Positions 3,330-46,090 of a stretch of 64,000 bases of DNA are shown piece after piece. Both the position numbers and the translations under genes were made by a program. Positions within the stretch are counted from its first letter, which is position 1. The number at the start of each line of letters is the position of its first letter. This DNA comes from Escherichia coli phage vB_EcoS_Ace. Under the pieces are notes generated by a model. The model did no database searches and had not been told where the DNA came from. It saw only the letters and a program-made list of their open reading frames with translations. The stretch lies in sequence record MT833283.1. One strand, given 5' to 3'.

Positions 3330-3668
3330 TTAAGCAACTACATTTTTCAGAAATTTGATGCCTTTCTTACACTTCTTATACCACCACGTCTTAGAGTTTT
3401 GTCGATTATGAACGCTTGAGATCTTCGCCTCATTAAAGTGCTTCAAAAGCATATAATCAGCCCCTAATTGCTCAAGTGGAATGTGATCTCCACTAGAATC
3501 ATAAACATAAGGCCGTTGATTAGCTCTGTAGTGATATACCTTATTAATCCGGCGTTTAAGCAAAGGACTAGTACAGTATATAAAGAAGTTTTTAGGATGC
3601 ATCAGCATCTCCTTCAAAATTGGTGCACCCCGTTGGTAACGATCCAACCTCTCAAGCTCTTCAGGCAA
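3330..3668 (-). CDS. hypothetical protein
   Basis: 112 aa ORF on the coding strand of this block. Confidence 0.5.
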   Translation of the reverse strand: MPEELERLDRYQRGAPILKEMLMHPKNFFIYCTSPLLKRRINKVYHYRANQRPYVYDSSGDHIPLEQLGADYMLLKHFNEAKISSVHNRQNSKTWWYKKCKKGIKFLKNVVA

Positions 3669-3701
3669 GCGCTAATCCATCTCAGCTAAAGGTGCAAATA
3701 T

Positions 3702-10374: not shown

Positions 10375-11247
10375 ATTGATTCCTTTTGTTAGGTATTTTT
10401 AAGAACTCTCGAAAAAGCTCTTAAAGATACCCGGCGGTAGGTAGGGTCAGCCCCCTCAGATTAAGCTCTGCAGCCCTTCCGTCAGACAATATCCTCCAGT
10501 TTAAGTCAGGGTGACTTTGTGGTTATGTTCTCCGTATGTGAAGAACTCGGTTAGGCTTAGGTCATGACTCCCAGCCTACTGCTGCCACTCAACAGGAATT
10601 ATCGCGAATTACCTGTACTATTGGGCACCATTAGTGACATCTCTCATGCCAGCATTTCCCACTCTCATATTCACGCGGTCTGGTAGAATCACACCTCCGA
10701 TTTTCGATGCGAAGCTGGATGCCTAGTCTCTATGTTAAACGGGGCACACACTAGGCAGTGATCCCGAGTTCCGAGTTTGGTTGAGGCCGTCAGGTTTCCT
10801 CGTGGTTTAGCTGTTTCGATTCTAACCTAATACTGATCAGGCGGCGTACCTCCTGAACCGTCATAGTATGTACTCCAGCAGCGAATGCTTATCCGGTATA
10901 AGCCCGAGTTATCCGATTCTTTCCGACCGCAGGATTCGAACCTGCATCTTCCACCAGTTACGGTTTAATATTACCGTTTATACTAGGACGGCAGTGTTAT
11001 CACATAAGTCAGTTCGACACCCCACTAACATAAACTAGAGAAGAGTTTACGAGATTTCGGGACAGCTCCCGTGTTTTCCGCAGATTTTCAGTTCCCTATC
11101 AATAGCAATAAGCGTTAGCTCGTAGCCTCTCTCAGAGTACTTACTAGTCTCCAACTCACCGACTCTATTCAGTGGAATAGCTATCCTAGTAGGAATCACT
11201 AAACTCACTCAGCGTAATCGGCTCGCTGTTCTCTACTTTATGAATTT
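10375..11247 (-). ncRNA. candidate long structured non-coding RNA or very long leader (ORF-free, GC-elevated, promoter-driven)
   Basis: About 870 nt with no ORF of 60 aa or more in the track; visibly more GC-rich than flanking DNA; strong T5-type promoter at 11248-11276 reads into it; contains canonical T-arm GCAGG-TTCGAAT-CCTGC (plus 10928-10944) without a foldable tRNA body. Confidence 0.4.
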
Positions 11248-18298: not shown

Positions 18299-18652
18299 TT
18301 AGATTATAATCAAGATTATTAGGGCGTATGTCAGATAATGCAGTAACTGATCAAATCCTAAAGCTATCCAAAACTTAGCATCGCTTATAGCGTATTTACA
18401 GCGTTGTGCTTTCCAATAATCTATAATAAAGTGTAGAATTAATTCCATAATAGCTAAAGCTATAGACATTCCTGGTGATGTGAATAGGATTAGAATTGCA
18501 AATGTTAATCCAGCATGTACTAGCGAATGGGTTAATAATGGAAGTTTCCACCCTATTTTATGCGTCTTTCTTAGCATATATGGTGTTTGGAGTGGATAAT
18601 CGGCCATAAAATGTTTTAGAAATAATATGACAAATAATAGTATAATTAACAT
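18299..18652 (-). CDS. small integral membrane protein
   Basis: 117 aa, strongly hydrophobic with three or four predicted TM segments. Confidence 0.55.
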   Translation of the reverse strand: MLIILLFVILFLKHFMADYPLQTPYMLRKTHKIGWKLPLLTHSLVHAGLTFAILILFTSPGMSIALAIMELILHFIIDYWKAQRCKYAISDAKFWIALGFDQLLHYLTYALIILIII

Positions 18653-28314: not shown

Positions 28315-28496
28315 TAAAGAAGATTTTTAAGGGTATCTGGAAAGGTCTAGTATGGTTTGTCAACCTAATCGGTATGATTACCATTTATTCTCTGTTCCTA
28401 TCTGTTATGTGGGGTAAAGGTGAATTGAAGGTTCCGGTTCCTTTTACTGAGGAAGTTAAAGTCTGGACGTGGGATGCTACTGGTGGAAATAAGTAA
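28311..28496 (+). CDS. small membrane protein
   Basis: 61 aa with one hydrophobic helix (GLVWFVNLIGMITIYSLFLSVMW). Confidence 0.45.
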   Translation: MIKKIFKGIWKGLVWFVNLIGMITIYSLFLSVMWGKGELKVPVPFTEEVKVWTWDATGGNK

Positions 28497-28989
28497 TACT
28501 CCTGTGATTTTCCTGGATATTGATGGGGTGCTCAATTCGAGCATCTCTCACCATCATGCTCCAGACAGTGAAAAGCTGTTCTTTGGCAGTGATTGGGTTT
28601 ATAAGCCATTACTCCAGGCTTTTCAGAACTTTCTTAAACCCTCCCCAATAATGATTGTTGGGGTCTCTTCATGGTTTTCTGTACGAAATGAAATGGAGAA
28701 CGTTCAGATTATGACCGGACTCGGTTTGATCGATCGTTTCCTTGGTACAACAGATTTTACTGGAGGTGGTTTATCTCGGGGTAATTCTGTTTTACGTTTC
28801 GTCGAAAAATATAAGCTCAAGCATTGGTGTGTCCTAGATGATGCTGGTGCTATGATGTACCAATTCCCTACTGTTATTGTAAATGGCAGGACTGGAATAA
28901 ACCTTCAAGATTTAAATGCTATCAGCTATATGCTGGAGTTTAGTCCAGATCTTGAAATGTGTAAGGCTCTTCAGAAACTTAAGGTGTAA
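28474..28989 (+). CDS. HAD-like phosphatase (putative)
   Basis: 171 aa; N-terminal VIFLDIDGVLNSS resembles HAD motif I; weak assignment. Confidence 0.45.
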   Translation: MLLVEISNTPVIFLDIDGVLNSSISHHHAPDSEKLFFGSDWVYKPLLQAFQNFLKPSPIMIVGVSSWFSVRNEMENVQIMTGLGLIDRFLGTTDFTGGGLSRGNSVLRFVEKYKLKHWCVLDDAGAMMYQFPTVIVNGRTGINLQDLNAISYMLEFSPDLEMCKALQKLKV

Positions 28990-28991
28990 AT

Positions 28992-29420
28992 ATGTTCGAT
29001 AATCTTTTCATGAAAGAGGTAAACCCTATGCTCCTCAACTTCTGGCGTTCTCTCCCTAATGGTATGTATAATGAAACCATCAATCTGCTTAAGATTTGGT
29101 GTGAGAATAACGATATCTTCCTATCCTTTAAAGGCCCACTAGAGGAAGCTCCATGTATTGGAGTTAGCGTGGATTTAGGTGAGGGAGTAGAAGAAATTGT
29201 AGACTGGAAAGAACTCGATGAAATGGGTCTGGTTTTTGCCTTGAACCATAAGCTGTTTATGCCTGCAAATCACCGTCTTATTGTAAACTATCGCACTGGT
29301 GAAGCTCCTGCTTTCCAGGTAAATGAACGTGAGGGCTGGTCATATTCGCCCAAAGAAGTAAATGAGGGGATTCAGAAACTTCGTCGTTTCGGGTATATGA
29401 TCCCAGGTTTAACTGCTTAA
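28992..29420 (+). CDS. hypothetical protein, tandem paralog A
   Basis: 142 aa; shares ELDEMGLVFALN...YRTGEAP...RRFGYMIPGL pattern with the next ORF. Confidence 0.5.
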   Translation: MFDNLFMKEVNPMLLNFWRSLPNGMYNETINLLKIWCENNDIFLSFKGPLEEAPCIGVSVDLGEGVEEIVDWKELDEMGLVFALNHKLFMPANHRLIVNYRTGEAPAFQVNEREGWSYSPKEVNEGIQKLRRFGYMIPGLTA

Positions 29421-29429
29421 GGAGGCAGA

Positions 29430-29825
29430 ATGGAACAAGTATTTTGGCGTCAGATAGATCCTAGTTTGGTAGAGCGTGCTGAAGGGCTCCTTGCACGTTG
29501 GTTGGGGGTTGACAAGGTTAGTGTAACATTTCCGTTTACTTCTGTAACAGACCCTAGTGTAGGTGTCTTTGTGGACGAAGATGAAGATGATGGTTGGGAA
29601 GCTGACTGGAATGAATTGTCCAGTATGGGCTTGATTGTTGCCCTCAACTTCTCTATATTCCATCCACGTGGCTTAGCCATTACACGTGACCCCGAAACTG
29701 GTGAATCCCCTTATCTTTTGCAAGTAGAAGATGATATTTGGGAGTACACCGAAGATATTCTCGAAGAAGCTAAAGGTCAATTAAATCGCATTGGGATCTA
29801 TGTTCCAGGCCTAAATGATGATTGA
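29430..29825 (+). CDS. hypothetical protein, tandem paralog B
   Basis: 131 aa; ELSSMGLIVALN...PETGESP...NRIGIYVPGL parallels the previous ORF. Confidence 0.5.
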   Translation: MEQVFWRQIDPSLVERAEGLLARWLGVDKVSVTFPFTSVTDPSVGVFVDEDEDDGWEADWNELSSMGLIVALNFSIFHPRGLAITRDPETGESPYLLQVEDDIWEYTEDILEEAKGQLNRIGIYVPGLNDD

Positions 29826-30438
29826 TTTTCATTAGTCCAATCCTGATTACCGAGTCATTTTGGCTCGGTTTTCTCTGTGCTCAAAGACACTGATAGCACC
29901 TTCGGAAAAATTTTACTTGCAGGATGCTCAAAATCTTGATATAATATTTATATTGAATTGAGAGACATTAGTAAAAATTGATTTTGCTAATTTTTCTTGT
30001 TTACAATCCGCAATACGGAACAGTTAGGCTGCCCCATTAAGGGTTGTTTTAACTATTACTAGTGTTTATACTGCATTAGTTAATTATCAATTAAGTGATC
30101 TGCGTACCCTGAATTCGGAAAGGTAAATCCAAACCGTGCATATTTAGCTCGTTATATAGGCAGAGCTTTATATGGGGGTGCGAACGAAAAGAGCAGCGAA
30201 TGGTGACACGTCCAGTAGCCACCTACCAATAGGATAGTGAGGGCAATCAGAATAGGCTTAGCGGCCAATGACCTAGGTTCTGATCTGGATAAGAGTTAAG
30301 AGAGCGCAGCACTGAGGTATGATAACTTATTCATACTGCTTGATGATTAATGTTTGTGTAAATGGTAGTAATAGTTGTTCTATTCTTTTGAATAGTCCTA
30401 AAGAAAGATATCCGAATAACCAACATAGGAGTATTGTT

Positions 30439-33228
30439 GTGTTCTCAATCCTACAAGGTCACGCAGGATTTTCCAGAGATAAAGCCACTGGCATCTGGAA
30501 AGAGATCAAAGTGGAAGATTACACCTTTGCAAAGCGATTCTCTAAAGAGCATCCAGAAGGTAAACCAGCTTCCATGCCCTTCAAATTTGATGTACTTGAA
30601 GAACTTGACCCGCAAAACCTTGCTGAAATGTTACCTATCATGCGTCGTCTTACCAAAGACCCGCATATTGTAGCTATTCGTGGTAAATGTCTAGCTCCAA
30701 AAGATAATGTGCGTCGTACCAGAGGAAACTTTAACGTATCCAATCCTAGTCATATTATCGCTATGGACGTGGATGGTATTGTAGATACTGGTGGCTATGA
30801 CAAGTTTAATCTTGTTGGCATGGCACGTCATATTATTAAGATGTTGAATAGTATTAGTGAGGATATGTTTCCTCTTGATGCAGGGTTTATTGCTCATGCA
30901 TCGTCTTCGGCTGGATTAAAACCAGGTATCCGAATGCACTTAATGCTAGAATCTAATGTCAAGGTAACGCAGGGGCAATTAAAATTCTTATTTACATCCA
31001 TCAATGACAGTAGTAAGCAAAAGTATGGCTTTGATATTGCTGACTTAGCTTATTATTCTTCTGTTCAGCTTCACTATTTCGCAGATCCCTTATTTGATGA
31101 TGGTATAGTCGATCCGTTTAAAGCGGAGAATAAACCACGTCTTGTGTATGTTAAGGGTTCGAAAGTGAATCTACCCAATAACCTAGTTGACTTTGAAACA
31201 ACTAGAGGTGAGTTTAAAGAAGAATTCTACTCCTTACTTGACCAAATTAAAGGCAAGAAGGCTGCATCTGATAAAGTGGAAGAAACCATCAGCGAACTAG
31301 AAGAAGCTGAGGATGGGGTGTACCTGCGTATTATCCCAAAACTTTATCACAGAGCGTTAGAAGATGGTGTTGACTTTACGTGGTTAGAACGTGAGATTAA
31401 ACCAGCTTTATCTGAATATATTGCAACTAAAGATAATAGTCGTAATATTCAAGATTACTTTAATAACGGTCGTAAGCAGGCTCTAAAAGCCTTTGTGAAT
31501 AACTCCAAACGTGAGATTCCACCCAACTTAAAAGGTGTACCACTAAAGCGTCTGGACACAGATTCACCGCCAGAAGTTCCATACTTGAAGATTAACATTG
31601 TACCCCCAAAAGGACATTTAACATTTGTTAAGGCAAGTCTTGGTACAGGTAAAACCACAGCAGTAACTAAGTGGCTAGATGCAGGTGTTCTTCCAGGAAA
31701 CTTTATTGCAATCACGAATACTAGGGCACTTGTATCTTCAAACGCGAAGAAATTCGGTGCTGGTCAGTATGATAAGTCAGTTGATATGCTGAACTTCAAA
31801 CGTGGTGCTATTGATCGTATGTCTTCAACTATTCACTCTATCCATAAGTTCAAGAGCTTTGTGGGTCAGATTGATACGATCTTTATTGATGAATGTGACG
31901 CAGTAATGAATGATCTGTTATTCGCCCCGGTTGTTAAAAACCGTCGTGAATGTATTCAGGTTCTTCGCGATATTCTTATTACTGCAAAAACGGTTATCTT
32001 ATCTGATGGTGATATCAGTGCAGAAACGATTGAAGCCTATGGTTCTTTGATTGATTTTGATAAACCGGTCGCGTTCTATAATCATCACCGTAAAATGCTG
32101 GCAAAAGCTCATGCATATGAGTTCCCTGATGAATCCAGTATTTGGGTCGCACTCCAGACTTCACTAGAGATGGGGGAGAAATCAATCCTAGTATCTGACT
32201 GTGGGCCAGATGAACTGAATGAAAAGGGGATGGCGTTACGTCGTAACACTGGTGCGTTAGTTAAAGAAATTCACTCAAACTCTACGTCTGATGTAGATAT
32301 CCGACGTATTCTGGATTACACTACTAATGAGCTAATTGATCAACAGATTGATTGTTTGTTATGTAGTCCATCTGTAACGAGTGGCGTTGACTTTAACTAT
32401 TTTGATAACGTATTTGTTATCACTAGAACCTCAAACCAAGCGCCAAACATGCGTTTTCAAGCAATCAGGCGCGACCGTGGTGCTCAGAACATTTATTATT
32501 TTATTGATAAATCTACGAGTGGATTTTCTGCGGGTTCCGAGCAATATAATATTGACGAAGGTTGGATTGAGTTAGCCCAACAACTGTACGCACGTCGTCG
32601 TGAGCTGGAATCTAGAAACTATACTAGTACTTTGCGTTATTATCTGCTTGATCAGGGTGCAACTATCGATATTTTCAGCGAAAGCTGGGGAACTATCGAA
32701 GGTGCAGGAAAAGAGTATACAGAAGAGCGAATCAAAGCTATTTTGCACTCAACTCCTGAATATTGTGCACCACGTCATGCAGATGCCTATGAAGCCAAGT
32801 TACTTCTGGTTCGCTATTATCATCTGGATTCTATTAAAGATGTAACAGTGGAACACGTTGAACAGTATATCAAGGATAAACCAAACGATAGAGCTGCATT
32901 CTTCCATAAGATGCACGACATGTTCTGGGAAGATATTAAAAAGTGTTCAAACGTAACAATCAAACCGTTTATCGAAGCTCTTAAGAATAAGAAGAAGGAT
33001 TTCTTCCTTAAGACAGGTCAGAGCGCTAACCCAAAATATGCTCGTATGTATCTTGGCATGATGGGTATCGGTAAAGATCTGGATACGGAAAAGATTGTGG
33101 ACTGGTACAGAACTTACTGTAAGATCGAATGTATGCCGATTCCAGTTAAGTTTATGACAGATGAAGAACGTCAGATGCATGAGGAAGCTCTTGCTGAATT
33201 GGGGGCTAGAAATGACAGCGAAGAATAA
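30439..33228 (+). CDS. origin-binding-type SF2 ATPase/helicase (replication initiator candidate)
   Basis: Walker A SLGTGKTTAVT and DExD-like IFIDECD; start reassigned to GTG 30439 with RBS AGGAG 7 nt upstream; the track's ATG at 30319 has no RBS. Confidence 0.6.
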   Translation: MFSILQGHAGFSRDKATGIWKEIKVEDYTFAKRFSKEHPEGKPASMPFKFDVLEELDPQNLAEMLPIMRRLTKDPHIVAIRGKCLAPKDNVRRTRGNFNVSNPSHIIAMDVDGIVDTGGYDKFNLVGMARHIIKMLNSISEDMFPLDAGFIAHASSSAGLKPGIRMHLMLESNVKVTQGQLKFLFTSINDSSKQKYGFDIADLAYYSSVQLHYFADPLFDDGIVDPFKAENKPRLVYVKGSKVNLPNNLVDFETTRGEFKEEFYSLLDQIKGKKAASDKVEETISELEEAEDGVYLRIIPKLYHRALEDGVDFTWLEREIKPALSEYIATKDNSRNIQDYFNNGRKQALKAFVNNSKREIPPNLKGVPLKRLDTDSPPEVPYLKINIVPPKGHLTFVKASLGTGKTTAVTKWLDAGVLPGNFIAITNTRALVSSNAKKFGAGQYDKSVDMLNFKRGAIDRMSSTIHSIHKFKSFVGQIDTIFIDECDAVMNDLLFAPVVKNRRECIQVLRDILITAKTVILSDGDISAETIEAYGSLIDFDKPVAFYNHHRKMLAKAHAYEFPDESSIWVALQTSLEMGEKSILVSDCGPDELNEKGMALRRNTGALVKEIHSNSTSDVDIRRILDYTTNELIDQQIDCLLCSPSVTSGVDFNYFDNVFVITRTSNQAPNMRFQAIRRDRGAQNIYYFIDKSTSGFSAGSEQYNIDEGWIELAQQLYARRRELESRNYTSTLRYYLLDQGATIDIFSESWGTIEGAGKEYTEERIKAILHSTPEYCAPRHADAYEAKLLLVRYYHLDSIKDVTVEHVEQYIKDKPNDRAAFFHKMHDMFWEDIKKCSNVTIKPFIEALKNKKKDFFLKTGQSANPKYARMYLGMMGIGKDLDTEKIVDWYRTYCKIECMPIPVKFMTDEERQMHEEALAELGARNDSEE

Positions 33229-45587: not shown

Positions 45588-45727
45588 TTATTGTATAATA
45601 TACACATAAATTTGAGAGAGAAAGTTTCGGATTGATAAGAAAGTCCGAAGCAGAAAAATAAAAATTGTACTTGTCAAATCCTCCCGATTTAATGTATAAT
45701 ATATACATAAATTGATGAGAGACAAAA

Positions 45728-46090
45728 ATGAAATTCTTTGATTACGAGAGAATTTACCTCTTAGCTAGAGGAAACTCCGACCTGATTGTCAAGCTATTTA
45801 ATAGAATGCTTGCAGAGCCTGATGCTCACCAGTTACTGGTCGGTTCTTCATTCATCTTGAATGAATCAACTATTGTTGATAACCCTTACAAATTGTCTAA
45901 TAGACAACTGGCAGAATATCTAGGAATTCTAAGTCTACGAAATTATGCCGAATATAAGTTTACAAACGATCCGAGTTTGGACATGCAATATGTCCCCATA
46001 TGGATACCACGTTCTGTAATCGACACTAACCCACTAATTGCAATCAATAAATCGAAGATAATCTTTAAAGAGGAAATAAAATATGGCTAA
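45728..46090 (+). CDS. hypothetical protein
   Basis: 120 aa ORF downstream of T5-type promoters at 45590-45720. Confidence 0.5.
   Translation: MKFFDYERIYLLARGNSDLIVKLFNRMLAEPDAHQLLVGSSFILNESTIVDNPYKLSNRQLAEYLGILSLRNYAEYKFTNDPSLDMQYVPIWIPRSVIDTNPLIAINKSKIIFKEEIKYG

What the first reader, a model, noticed from the sequence alone, without database searches (positions are those of the whole stretch)
29826..30438. ~600-bp non-coding region with tandem promoters upstream of the origin-binding-type helicase
Two promoter-like elements (about 29915-29960 and 29975-30010) are followed by some 420 nt without a convincing ORF. The 969-aa SF2 ATPase then most plausibly starts at GTG 30439 (RBS AGGAG), not at the track's ATG. 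A long, relatively GC-rich leader next to a replication-initiator-like gene could be a replication origin (binding sites or DNA-unwinding element), a structured regulatory leader or a small RNA.
Basis: seen in the sequence. Interest (0 to 1): 0.55.

Follow-up and report, generated by a model that had tools for sequence, protein, structure and literature searches.

The report
Large structured RNA leader before helicase
The 600-base gap upstream of the phage T5-type D2 "origin-binding" helicase gene is one strong early promoter followed by a roughly 490-base untranslated leader; the leader contains a conserved, intricately folded RNA of about 330 bases that matches no catalogued RNA family and whose function is unknown.

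Summary
The window is a T5-like phage (99.5% identical to Salmonella phages beppo and Sw2). The non-coding gap is real and has no conserved ORF.

Its anatomy:
- terminator of the upstream operon (29849-29869)
- one genuine T5-type early promoter (-35 at 29915, extended -10 at 29937-45, start near 29952)
- a leader of about 487 nt
- Shine-Dalgarno AGGAG, then GTG at 30439

The second "promoter" is a chance-level match and is not conserved. The GTG start is supported.

The new result is that the leader folds into a conserved RNA (30050-30377). It has a closing stem of about 43 bp, a multi-helix G+C-rich core and an invariant hairpin loop, CUUAGCGG.
- Covariation is strong. In one phage group, 47 of 95 pairs show compensatory changes against 13.6±2.7 in shuffles. 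Across three sequence types the figure is 33 of 53 against 19.4±2.1.
- G·U pairs outnumber A·C by more than 12 to 1, so the sense strand is the one that folds.
- The same architecture appears in Tequintavirus, Epseptimavirus, Sugarlandvirus, Myunavirus, Providencia and Proteus phages.
- Rfam 15 gives no match.

There are no iterons and no skew shift here, so an origin is not supported. The best reading is a cis-acting structured leader or processing module for D2 mRNA, but the function is unproven.

The parts
29849..29876 (+). Intrinsic terminator of the upstream operon (9-bp stem ACCGAGTCA/TGGCTCGGT, then a T-run)
   Evidence: Found by the scan. T5 annotates a rho-independent terminator at the equivalent site, and Lindwurm does too. 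It is conserved.
29901..29951 (+). T5-type early promoter (equivalent to T5P32): A/T-rich upstream element, -35 TTGCAG at 29915-20, extended -10 TGATATAAT at 29937-45; inferred start near 29952
   Evidence: Annotated in T5. The TATAAT-N-TGAGAG family has 10 copies in the window against 0.14 expected. Conserved in T1, T2, L070, My1, Sugarland and Providencia. The start position is inferred by analogy with T5 PN25 (own knowledge) and was not measured.
29952..30438 (+). 5' leader of D2 mRNA, about 487 nt. The other eight T5-type promoter sites with a gene directly downstream have leaders of about 21-34 nt.
   Evidence: No conserved ORF. No terminator before D2.
29960..29998 (+). 5'-terminal stem-loop H0 (GAGAGA/UUUCUU plus AUUAGUAAAA/UUUUGCUAAU)
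   Evidence: Minimum-free-energy fold. In L070 the hairpin is kept through changed pairs, read by eye.
29978..30007 (+). Promoter-like site 2 (TTGATT-18-TACAAT): probably not a promoter
   Evidence: 9-of-12 match, at chance frequency. Split by a 95-nt insertion in some phages and absent in other lineages.
30021..30031 (+). Hairpin H1, CAGU-UAG-GCUG, inside the most sequence-conserved block of the leader (ACGGAACAGUUAGGCUGCC)
   Evidence: four pairs, 100% paired, with one A-U to G-C compensation in L095 and an invariant U·G closing pair.
30050..30377 (+). Core structured RNA element, closed by a long stem: 30050-69/30358-77 (19 bp), 30073-90/30340-53 (16 bp) and 30094-30103/30306-13 (8 bp)
   Evidence: Consensus fold of the T1 alignment. 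Pair counts: 99.5% paired, 6 compensated pairs, none in the slid controls. The closing stem is compensated across types (helices 3-6).
30104..30181 (+). Domain A: helix 30104-10/30175-81 enclosing hairpins 30116-36 and 30139-74
   Evidence: An analogous three-way junction in the T2-like group has compensatory changes (helices 6-10).
30210..30290 (+). Domain B: P5 30210-15/30285-90, P5a 30218-44, P6 30246-54/30276-84
   Evidence: Compensated within T1: C-G to A-U in P5, C-G to U-A in P5a and two pairs in P6. Also compensated across types (helix 8; helices 12-14).
30255..30266 (+). Invariant capping hairpin GGCU-UAGC-GGCC. The octamer CUUAGCGG is identical in every enteric-host lineage examined.
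   Evidence: The closing pair is compensated in My1 (G-C to A-U).
30316..30337 (+). P7 hairpin
   Evidence: G-C to A-U compensation within T1 (helix 17). A hairpin is kept at the same place with unrelated sequence in other types (helix 10; helix 15).
30380..30395 (+). Small 3' hairpin CUAUUC/GAAUAG with no U-tract, so not a terminator
   Evidence: (helix 11).
30422..30443 (+). Weak hairpin that presents the Shine-Dalgarno AGGAG (30427-31) in its loop and includes the first bases of the GTG start (30439)
   Evidence: helix 19; one-sided C-G to U·G changes only.
30439..33228 (+). D2 / 'replication origin binding protein' gene, 929 aa from GTG
   Evidence: T5 D2 has been characterised as a bipolar helicase (PMC3632103).

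Best explanation
A single strong T5-type early promoter fires near 29952 and makes D2 mRNA with an exceptionally long leader of about 487 nt.

The leader folds co-transcriptionally into:
- a 5' stem-loop
- a small, highly conserved hairpin
- a compact element of about 330 nt, made of a closing duplex of about 43 bp around a two-domain G+C-rich core capped by the invariant CUUAGCGG loop

I propose that this element acts in cis on D2, the first gene downstream of this promoter. It would be a protein-recognised and/or RNase-processed leader that sets the stability and translation of the message.

The invariant loop is the likeliest recognition site for a conserved partner, possibly D2 itself or another phage replication protein. 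The long duplex is the likeliest entry point for double-strand-specific processing.

Shown here: the RNA structure, its conservation, its strand, its co-orientation with D2 and the absence of a terminator before D2. Inferred only: the partner, the processing and the regulatory outcome.
For: Structure under selection:
- T2-like group (A3): 95 pairs, 95.1% paired, 47 with compensatory change against 13.6±2.7 in shuffles (0 of 500); slid controls gave 6-15.
- Three sequence types (A2): 53 shared pairs, 33 compensated against 19.4±2.1; slid controls gave 8-17.
- The window's own type (A6): 136 pairs, 99.5% paired, 6 compensated pairs and about 12 one-sided changes to G·U; slid controls gave 0-1.

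Sense strand: G·U to A·C cells are 149:9, 187:15 and 289:9.

One transcription unit with D2:
- same orientation
- no intrinsic terminator between promoter and D2 in three lineages
- fixed distance from the CUUAGCGG loop to the start codon (-171 to -187) in most lineages

Exceptional leader: the other eight T5-type promoter sites with a gene directly downstream have leaders of about 21-34 nt.

Not coding.

Breadth:
- A covariance model built without Sugarland-type sequences finds them at E of about 1e-10.
- A long closing stem, G+C-rich core and CUUAGCGG hairpin are also visible in Providencia and Proteus phages.
Against: - No regulatory switch was found. There is no conserved anti-Shine-Dalgarno pairing and no terminator or antiterminator.
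- In Proteus phages a perfect 12-of-12 promoter lies between the element and D2. There D2 can be made without the leader, which fits an autonomous RNA or a DNA-level role better.
- A closing duplex of about 43 bp is unusual for regulatory leaders. It looks more like the processing stalk of an RNA that is excised.
- No transcript ends, processing sites or binding partner are known, and no T5 transcriptome was found in the literature searches.
Confidence: 0.42

Rival explanations
1. The core is excised as a stable non-coding RNA that acts in trans, for example as a ribonucleoprotein scaffold, a host-takeover factor or an anti-defence RNA. Here the long closing duplex would work like the RNase III processing stalks that flank ribosomal RNAs, and D2 would simply share the promoter.
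For: - The closing rod is about 43 bp with only small bulges, well beyond the roughly 20 bp that RNase III needs (own knowledge).
- A long A+U-rich closing stem is kept in seven lineages despite unrelated sequences.
- Proteus phages have a consensus promoter between the element and D2, which uncouples them.
- GNRA-like tetraloops and purine-rich conserved joining strands suggest a compact tertiary fold.
Against: - Always directly upstream of D2, in the same orientation, with no terminator.
- Only one copy in the window.
- No evidence of processing or accumulation.
- The core sequence has diverged into unalignable types (T1, T2, Sugarland). That is hard to reconcile with a conserved host target, unless only the invariant loop matters.
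Confidence: 0.27
2. The region is a replication origin at which the promoter transcript serves as a structured pre-primer or R-loop former, as with ColE1 RNA II or the T7 and T4 promoter-dependent origins. D2, encoded next door, would use it.
For: - It lies next to the gene of the presumed initiator helicase.
- A strong promoter fires into the region.
- The promoter-proximal 150 nt are A+T-rich (GC 0.25-0.33).
- Selection on the sense strand would also fit the displaced non-template DNA strand of an R-loop.
- Divergent core types could act as specificity determinants, as in ColE1-family plasmids (own knowledge).
Against: - No iterons or repeated binding sites.
- No skew inflection at 30 kb.
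- Recombitron strand bias indicates dominant unidirectional T5 replication from one genome end (PMC10055335).
- No T5 origin has been mapped to sequence in anything I could read. The 1976 electron-microscopy paper was not available.
Confidence: 0.15
3. The element is a metabolite-sensing riboswitch that controls D2 expression.
For: It is a structured 5' leader upstream of a gene tied to nucleotide and replication status, with conserved purine-rich junction strands in the T2-like group.
Against: - The core sequence is not conserved between types. Only the CUUAGCGG loop and a few bases are invariant, whereas riboswitch pockets are highly conserved.
- At 330 nt it is larger than most known aptamers.
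- No expression platform was found.
- No Rfam match.
Confidence: 0.06
4. The gap contains missed small protein genes, or D2 starts at the upstream ATG 30319.
For: Some GenBank records annotate a 33-aa ORF (29860-29961), or start D2 at the ATG (Sw2). Several records list 'hypothetical protein' under the region.
Against: - Every ORF of 25 aa or more differs in position, frame and sequence between lineages.
- The 33-aa ORF overlaps the terminator and promoter.
- The ATG extension meets a stop in T5 and overlaps compensated RNA helices.
- D2 homologues align from the GTG/ATG Met1.
Confidence: 0.03

Closest known systems
RNase III processing stalks (ribosomal RNA precursors; the R1.1-type sites in phage T7 early mRNA)
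   Same: A long duplex, formed by sequences flanking a structured core or lying between genes of an early phage transcript, sits just upstream of a replication-related gene.
   Different: Cleavage was not shown. T7 sites are simple hairpins of about 60 nt with no large conserved core; here the stalk encloses about 200 nt of conserved multi-helix RNA.
ColE1 RNA II pre-primer, and the promoter-dependent origins of T7 (tandem promoters 1.1A/1.1B) and T4 (oriF/oriG)
   Same: A promoter-driven, structured transcript lies next to replication functions. Sequence 'types' could encode specificity.
   Different: There is no evidence of initiation here, no antisense partner, only one credible promoter, and published T5 strand-bias data argue against a dominant internal origin (PMC10055335).
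Autogenous translational operators of phage replication genes (T4 gene 32 pseudoknot, T4/RB69 gene 43 hairpin)
   Same: A structured 5' leader of a replication gene with a sequence-invariant loop that could be a protein site.
   Different: Those operators are 20-40 nt and overlap the ribosome-binding site. This element is about 330 nt and ends about 60 nt before the start codon.
Large 'ornate' phage-associated non-coding RNAs (GOLLD, ROOL, HEARO/omega RNA, OLE)
   Same: Large, multi-helix, strongly covarying, phage-borne, function not obvious.
   Different: No Rfam family matches even at E up to 10. This element is smaller, is fixed in a 5' leader and is restricted, as far as tested, to Demerecviridae.
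Processive antiterminator RNAs (HK022 put, EAR)
   Same: A cis-acting structured RNA immediately downstream of an early promoter at the head of a gene cluster.
   Different: put is two hairpins of about 70 nt. No similarity was tested or seen, and no downstream terminators were examined.

Membership tests
Any Rfam 15 RNA family | Covariance-model score at or above the gathering threshold (or at least a suggestive E-value) | tested here: not met
   The gathering scan of the window found only tRNAs. The permissive scan of 29750-30520 gave only E 0.32 and 2.1 chance hits, both outside the element. Six relatives gave nothing in their leaders.
T5-type early (sigma-70) promoter | -35 and extended -10 hexamers plus the T5-specific transcribed motif TTGAGAG, repeated through the genome and conserved in relatives | tested here: met
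   Met for promoter 1. Promoter 2 fails: chance-level match and not conserved.
Iteron-type replication origin | Array of repeated initiator-binding sites | tested here: not met
   Only two-copy repeats of 9-19 nt with 74-100% identity, scattered without regular spacing.
Iteron-type replication origin | Compositional skew inflection at the site | tested here: not met
   GC skew flips near 24.5 kb and 51.5 kb with gene orientation, and does not flip at 30 kb.
Iteron-type replication origin | Initiation of DNA synthesis at the site | not testable with these tools
   Needs marker-frequency or 2D-gel data. Indirect published evidence points to one genome end (PMC10055335).
Conserved structured RNA (generic) | Base pairs maintained by compensatory substitutions beyond controls | tested here: met
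   (0 of 500 shuffles reach the observed values; slid controls are 3- to 8-fold lower, and 0-1 for the window's own type).
Conserved structured RNA (generic) | Strand specificity (G·U tolerated, A·C avoided) | tested here: met
   G·U to A·C is 149:9, 187:15 and 289:9. Caveat: the structures were predicted on the + strand, which favours G·U.
Riboswitch | Highly conserved ligand-pocket nucleotides across all members | tested here: not met
   The core is unalignable between the T1, T2 and Sugarland types. Only CUUAGCGG and scattered bases are invariant.
Riboswitch | Expression platform (terminator, or sequestration of the Shine-Dalgarno site) | tested here: inconclusive
   No terminator. Only a weak hairpin around the Shine-Dalgarno site (helix 19). 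A possible UCCUA/UAGGA pairing is not conserved outside close relatives (read).
RNase III substrate | At least about 20 bp of near-continuous duplex | tested here: met
   The outermost helix is 12 bp, a G·G mismatch, then 7 bp, followed by 16 bp and 8 bp segments. Actual cleavage is not testable here.
tRNA / tmRNA | ARAGORN or Rfam tRNA detection | tested here: not met
   All tRNA hits lie at 1-11 kb on the minus strand.
Protein-coding gene(s) | ORF conserved in frame and sequence among relatives | tested here: not met

The most novel reading that the evidence does not exclude
The leader RNA is a functional partner of the D2 initiator rather than a passive untranslated region. It would be an origin-specifying or priming RNA, comparable to ColE1 RNA II or a retron RNA sitting upstream of its enzyme gene. 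D2 or another replication protein would recognise it through the invariant CUUAGCGG loop.

The mutually unalignable core types (T1, T2, Sugarland) would then act as specificity determinants between co-infecting T5-like phages.

One hint is unverified. The D2 N-terminal domain carries DxD (IIAMDVDG) and SxxGxxxGxxxH motifs, which I read as reminiscent of archaeo-eukaryotic primase-polymerases. This could not be confirmed: there was no Pfam or PDB sequence hit, and the single-sequence AlphaFold model was unusable.
Probability: 0.1. Interest if true: 0.9.

Novelty: new variant of a known kind. Interest (0 to 1): 0.62.

Why it matters
T5 has been a model phage for about 70 years, and its promoters are standard laboratory tools. 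Even so, neither Rfam 15 nor any paper found in the searches made here describes a structured RNA in front of D2.

A covarying RNA of about 330 nt, conserved across at least six genera of Demerecviridae, sits downstream of the promoter that drives D2. That gives a concrete handle on how T5-like phages control or initiate replication, which is still poorly understood.

It also adds a new large RNA family for structural study. On the practical side, it corrects widespread mis-annotation: D2 started at an upstream ATG, and small "hypothetical proteins" called inside a promoter or leader.

Tried and rejected
- **Rfam.** Gathering and permissive scans of the window region and of six relatives found nothing.
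- **Iterons.** None found.
- **Skew.** No inflection at the site.
- **Covariance model R1.** It was built from the 3' half of the T2-like core. It recovered the Sugarland type (E about 1e-10) but not the window's own T1 type, nor Providencia or Proteus. MAFFT had misaligned the invariant loop by one column in the seed, so I did not spend a second model.
- **R1 hit at 18475-18558.** It matches only the P7-like hairpin, inside a minus-strand ORF, and is judged to be chance.
- **Pattern scan of IMG/VR** (AGAAGTG-N55-75-CTTAGCGG). It returned 120 or more stretches. Of the 80 loci returned, R1 confirmed only the two members already known.
- **D2 N-terminal domain.**
  - Pfam, even at E up to 10, a PDB profile search and PHROGs gave no informative fold.
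  - The homologue search returned only 2 proteins.
  - The single-sequence model had pLDDT 35.6 and was discarded without a fold search.
- **Correlation of D2 with RNA type.** The only strongly diverged D2 segment between T1 and T2 phages is the linker at about residues 340-400, which is uninformative.
- **Literature.** Seven searches found no T5 transcriptome and no description of this RNA. The 1976 origin-mapping paper was not held.
- **Anti-Shine-Dalgarno switch** (UUAGG / UCCUAA / UAGGAG). Rejected because it is not conserved outside close relatives.

Full report
**Source and context**

The window is a T5-like siphophage of the Demerecviridae.
- The stretch 29700-30560 is 99.5% identical to Salmonella phages beppo and Sw2 (Sw2 is classified in Epseptimavirus).
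- The finding region itself (29826-30438) is 91.9% identical to phage T5, and 537 phage records match it.

The finding lies between a 131-aa DUF7415 gene (29430-29825) and the gene that T5 calls obp or D2. D2 has been characterised biochemically as an unusual bipolar helicase and is proposed to be a replication initiator (PMC3632103).

**Checking the observation**

The gap is real and is not coding.
- In eight lineages, every ORF of 25 codons or more in the leader differs in position, frame and sequence.
- The 33-aa ORF that some records annotate (29860-29961) overlaps a terminator and a promoter.

The start of the gap is the intrinsic terminator of the upstream operon (29849-29869 plus a T-run).

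Promoter 1 is a genuine member of the T5 early-promoter family.
- It has an A/T-rich upstream element, -35 TTGCAG (29915-20) and extended -10 TGATATAAT (29937-45).
- It carries the family's transcribed motif TTGAGAG.
- TATAAT-N6-16-TGAGAG occurs 10 times in the window against 0.14 expected, always in the direction of the local genes.
- T5 annotates this copy as T5P32.
- It is conserved in the T1, T2, L070, My1, Sugarland and Providencia lineages.
- By analogy with T5 PN25 (my own knowledge), transcription should start near 29952.

Promoter 2 (29978-30007) is not credible.
- It is a 9-of-12 match in a scan that found 4 sites where 3.4 were expected.
- It lies inside a 5' RNA hairpin.
- A 95-nt insertion splits it in L020, L022 and L036.
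- It is missing from L070, L071 and L068.

The GTG 30439 start is well supported.
- T5 annotates the equivalent base.
- D2 proteins from six genera align from residue 1.
- Sugarland, My1 and Proteus phages have ATG at exactly that position.
- The upstream ATG-30319 reading frame runs into a stop in T5.

**How unusual the leader is**

Of the ten T5-type promoter sites in the window, eight have leaders of about 21-34 nt, in which the GAGAG motif runs straight into the ribosome-binding site. A ninth (45594) lies about 100 nt upstream of a second copy (45695), with only a small hairpin between them. Only the D2 promoter has a leader of about 487 nt.

**What the leader is**

Relatives fall into sequence types.
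- In the "T2" phage group, the flanks of the leader are 82-95% identical to the window.
- The central 240 nt or so (30108-30345) shows no detectable similarity, yet its length is preserved to within 2 nt.
- The alignment showed compensatory changes at once. AACUAUUAC/GUAAUAGUU becomes AACUGUUAC/GUAACAGUU, and CUGCG/CGCAG becomes CUACA/UGUAG.

I collected leaders from GenBank phages, IMG/VR and metagenomes. They resolve into these lineages:
- T1 (the window and T5)
- T2
- L095
- L070
- My1
- Sugarland

Providencia and Proteus phages were examined separately.

Formal covariation tests:

| Alignment | Sequences | Pairs | Paired | Pairs with changes on both sides | Shuffled expectation | Slid-register controls |
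|---|---|---|---|---|---|---|
| A3, T2-like group | 12 (41-59% identity between sub-lineages) | 95 | 95.1% | 47 | 13.6±2.7 (0 of 500) | 6-15 |
| A2, T1 + T2-like + Sugarland | 18 | 53 shared | 94.2% | 33 | 19.4±2.1 | 8-17 |
| A6, the window's own type | 17 | 136 | 99.5% | 6 independent compensated pairs | not discriminating (5.4±0.8) | 0-1 |

In A6 there are also about 12 one-sided changes, all to G·U.

The folded strand is the sense strand. G·U cells outnumber A·C cells 149:9, 187:15 and 289:9. One caveat applies: the structures were predicted on that strand.

A covariance model built only from T2-like sequences recovers the Sugarland-type element at E of about 1e-10.

**Architecture in window coordinates**

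- 5' stem-loop H0: 29960-29998
- Hairpin H1, CAGU-UAG-GCUG: 30021-30031
- Closing rod: 30050-69/30358-77, 30073-90/30340-53 and 30094-30103/30306-13, about 43 bp in all
- Domain A: 30104-30181
- Domain B: 30210-30290, whose P6 helix is capped by the hairpin GGCU-UAGC-GGCC (30255-66)
- P7 hairpin: 30316-37
- A small hairpin: 30380-95
- A weak hairpin displaying the Shine-Dalgarno site: 30422-43

The octamer CUUAGCGG is invariant in every enteric-host lineage.
- It sits 171-187 nt before the D2 start in most of them, 281-285 nt in Providencia phages and 410 nt in Proteus phages.
- In My1 its closing pair is compensated (G-C to A-U).

Providencia and Proteus phages show the same plan by eye and in a sub-threshold model alignment: a long A+U-rich closing stem, a G+C-rich core, and P5, P6 and the capped hairpin.

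**What it is not**

- No Rfam 15 family matches, even at E up to 10.
- It is not a tRNA or tmRNA.
- It is not an iteron array.
- It is not at a skew inflection.
- It is probably not a riboswitch, because the core sequence differs completely between types and no expression platform is present.

**Mechanism**

Established here:
- The element is an RNA-level, sense-strand structure.
- It is transcribed from the D2 promoter.
- No intrinsic terminator lies before D2 in three lineages.

Inferred:
- It acts in cis on D2 mRNA, affecting stability, processing or translation.
- The invariant loop is a recognition site.
- The duplex of about 43 bp is a likely substrate for double-strand-specific processing.

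I give this reading 0.42.

The main rival (0.27) is that the closing rod is a processing stalk and the core is released as an autonomous RNA. Its best support is the Proteus arrangement. There, perfect 12-of-12 promoters lie both before the element (705-733) and between the element and D2 (1435-1464).

The origin or primer-RNA model (0.15) keeps its attraction because of the neighbouring initiator gene, but it gained no support from the tests. Published strand-bias data also count against it, since they indicate dominant unidirectional T5 replication from one end (PMC10055335).

**Novelty**

Seven literature searches found no description of this RNA and no T5 transcriptome. I therefore regard it as an undescribed family of structured RNA. 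Its general kind, a structured phage leader or non-coding RNA, is known. Its size, its long closing rod, its family-wide conservation and its divergence into types are unusual.

Noticed in passing
L041 430-1531 (Vibrio phage JSF10); L040 806-1516 (Vibrio phage Athena); L078-L081, L084: Vibrio T5-like phages also have long regions upstream of D2 (about 700-1100 nt) with few or no plus-strand ORFs. In JSF10 the last 700 nt are 51% G+C. They share conserved blocks (GUGACUAACC, ACGUAGAGA, GUAAGAGUG, GUCGGUA) and hairpins that appear compensated. No Rfam match. Homology to the enteric element was not established.
   Followed up: partly
L072/L073 740-1470 (Proteus phages, Stubb-like): The leader is about 700 nt. 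It holds a full element (CUUAGCGG at 1091) and a degenerate second copy of the P6 and loop region (CUUAGCCG at 1415). Perfect consensus promoters lie at 705-733 and 1435-1464.
   Followed up: partly
L020, L022, L036: about 95 nt inserted at the equivalent of window ~29998: An optional insertion (AGTGAAGCTGACAAGGGATTTACGG...AAAAAGTTTTTTCTT) lies between the 5' stem-loop and hairpin H1 of the leader in some phages of both core types. It can form its own hairpin (AUUUACGG/CCUGUAAAU).
   Followed up: no
L004 1016-1468 (phage 8sent1748); L006 1640-2092 (phage S132); equivalent to window ~29826-29940: An HNH homing-endonuclease gene is inserted between the upstream terminator and the leader. A different T5-type promoter follows the HNH gene and joins the leader at GAGAGACATTAG, so the leader RNA stays intact.
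   Followed up: partly
window 30319-30438 and 29860-29961; GenBank records such as Sw2 (L001): Many deposited T5-like genomes start D2 at the upstream ATG (969 aa), or annotate a 33-aa 'hypothetical protein' across the terminator and promoter. Both are probably annotation artefacts.
   Followed up: yes
window 45594-45721: Two T5-type promoters lie about 100 nt apart upstream of a 120-aa ORF (45728-46090). A small hairpin (UUUCGGA...UCCGAAG, about 45625-45651) follows the first promoter. This could be a very short transcript or an attenuator.
   Followed up: no
window 28474-29825: The genes just upstream encode a HAD domain of the 'Swiss Army Knife' RNA-repair type (171 aa) and two paralogous DUF7415 proteins (142 and 131 aa). 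In relatives they follow a Sir2-like gene.
   Followed up: no
window 18475-18558 (+): Model R1 scored 18.7 bits here (E 2.6e-4 over the full search). Only the P7-like hairpin GGAAGUUUCCACC matches, and the site is antisense to a 117-aa ORF. Judged to be chance.
   Followed up: yes
window 3624-3695 (-) and 10921-10992 (-): Rfam's tRNA model reports two weak extra tRNA-like hits (33.4 and 29.7 bits) that ARAGORN does not call. They lie beside the 14-gene tRNA cluster at 0.7-9.9 kb.
   Followed up: no
D2 residues ~340-400 (window ~31456-31638): The linker between the N-terminal domain and the helicase domain is by far the most diverged part of D2 between phages carrying the T1 and T2 RNA types (57-75% identity against more than 90% elsewhere).
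   Followed up: partly
window ~24500 and ~51500: GC skew changes sign at both points. The 24.5-kb flip separates the minus-strand tRNA cluster and promoter sites on its left from the plus-strand ones on its right. Neither flip is near the finding.
   Followed up: no
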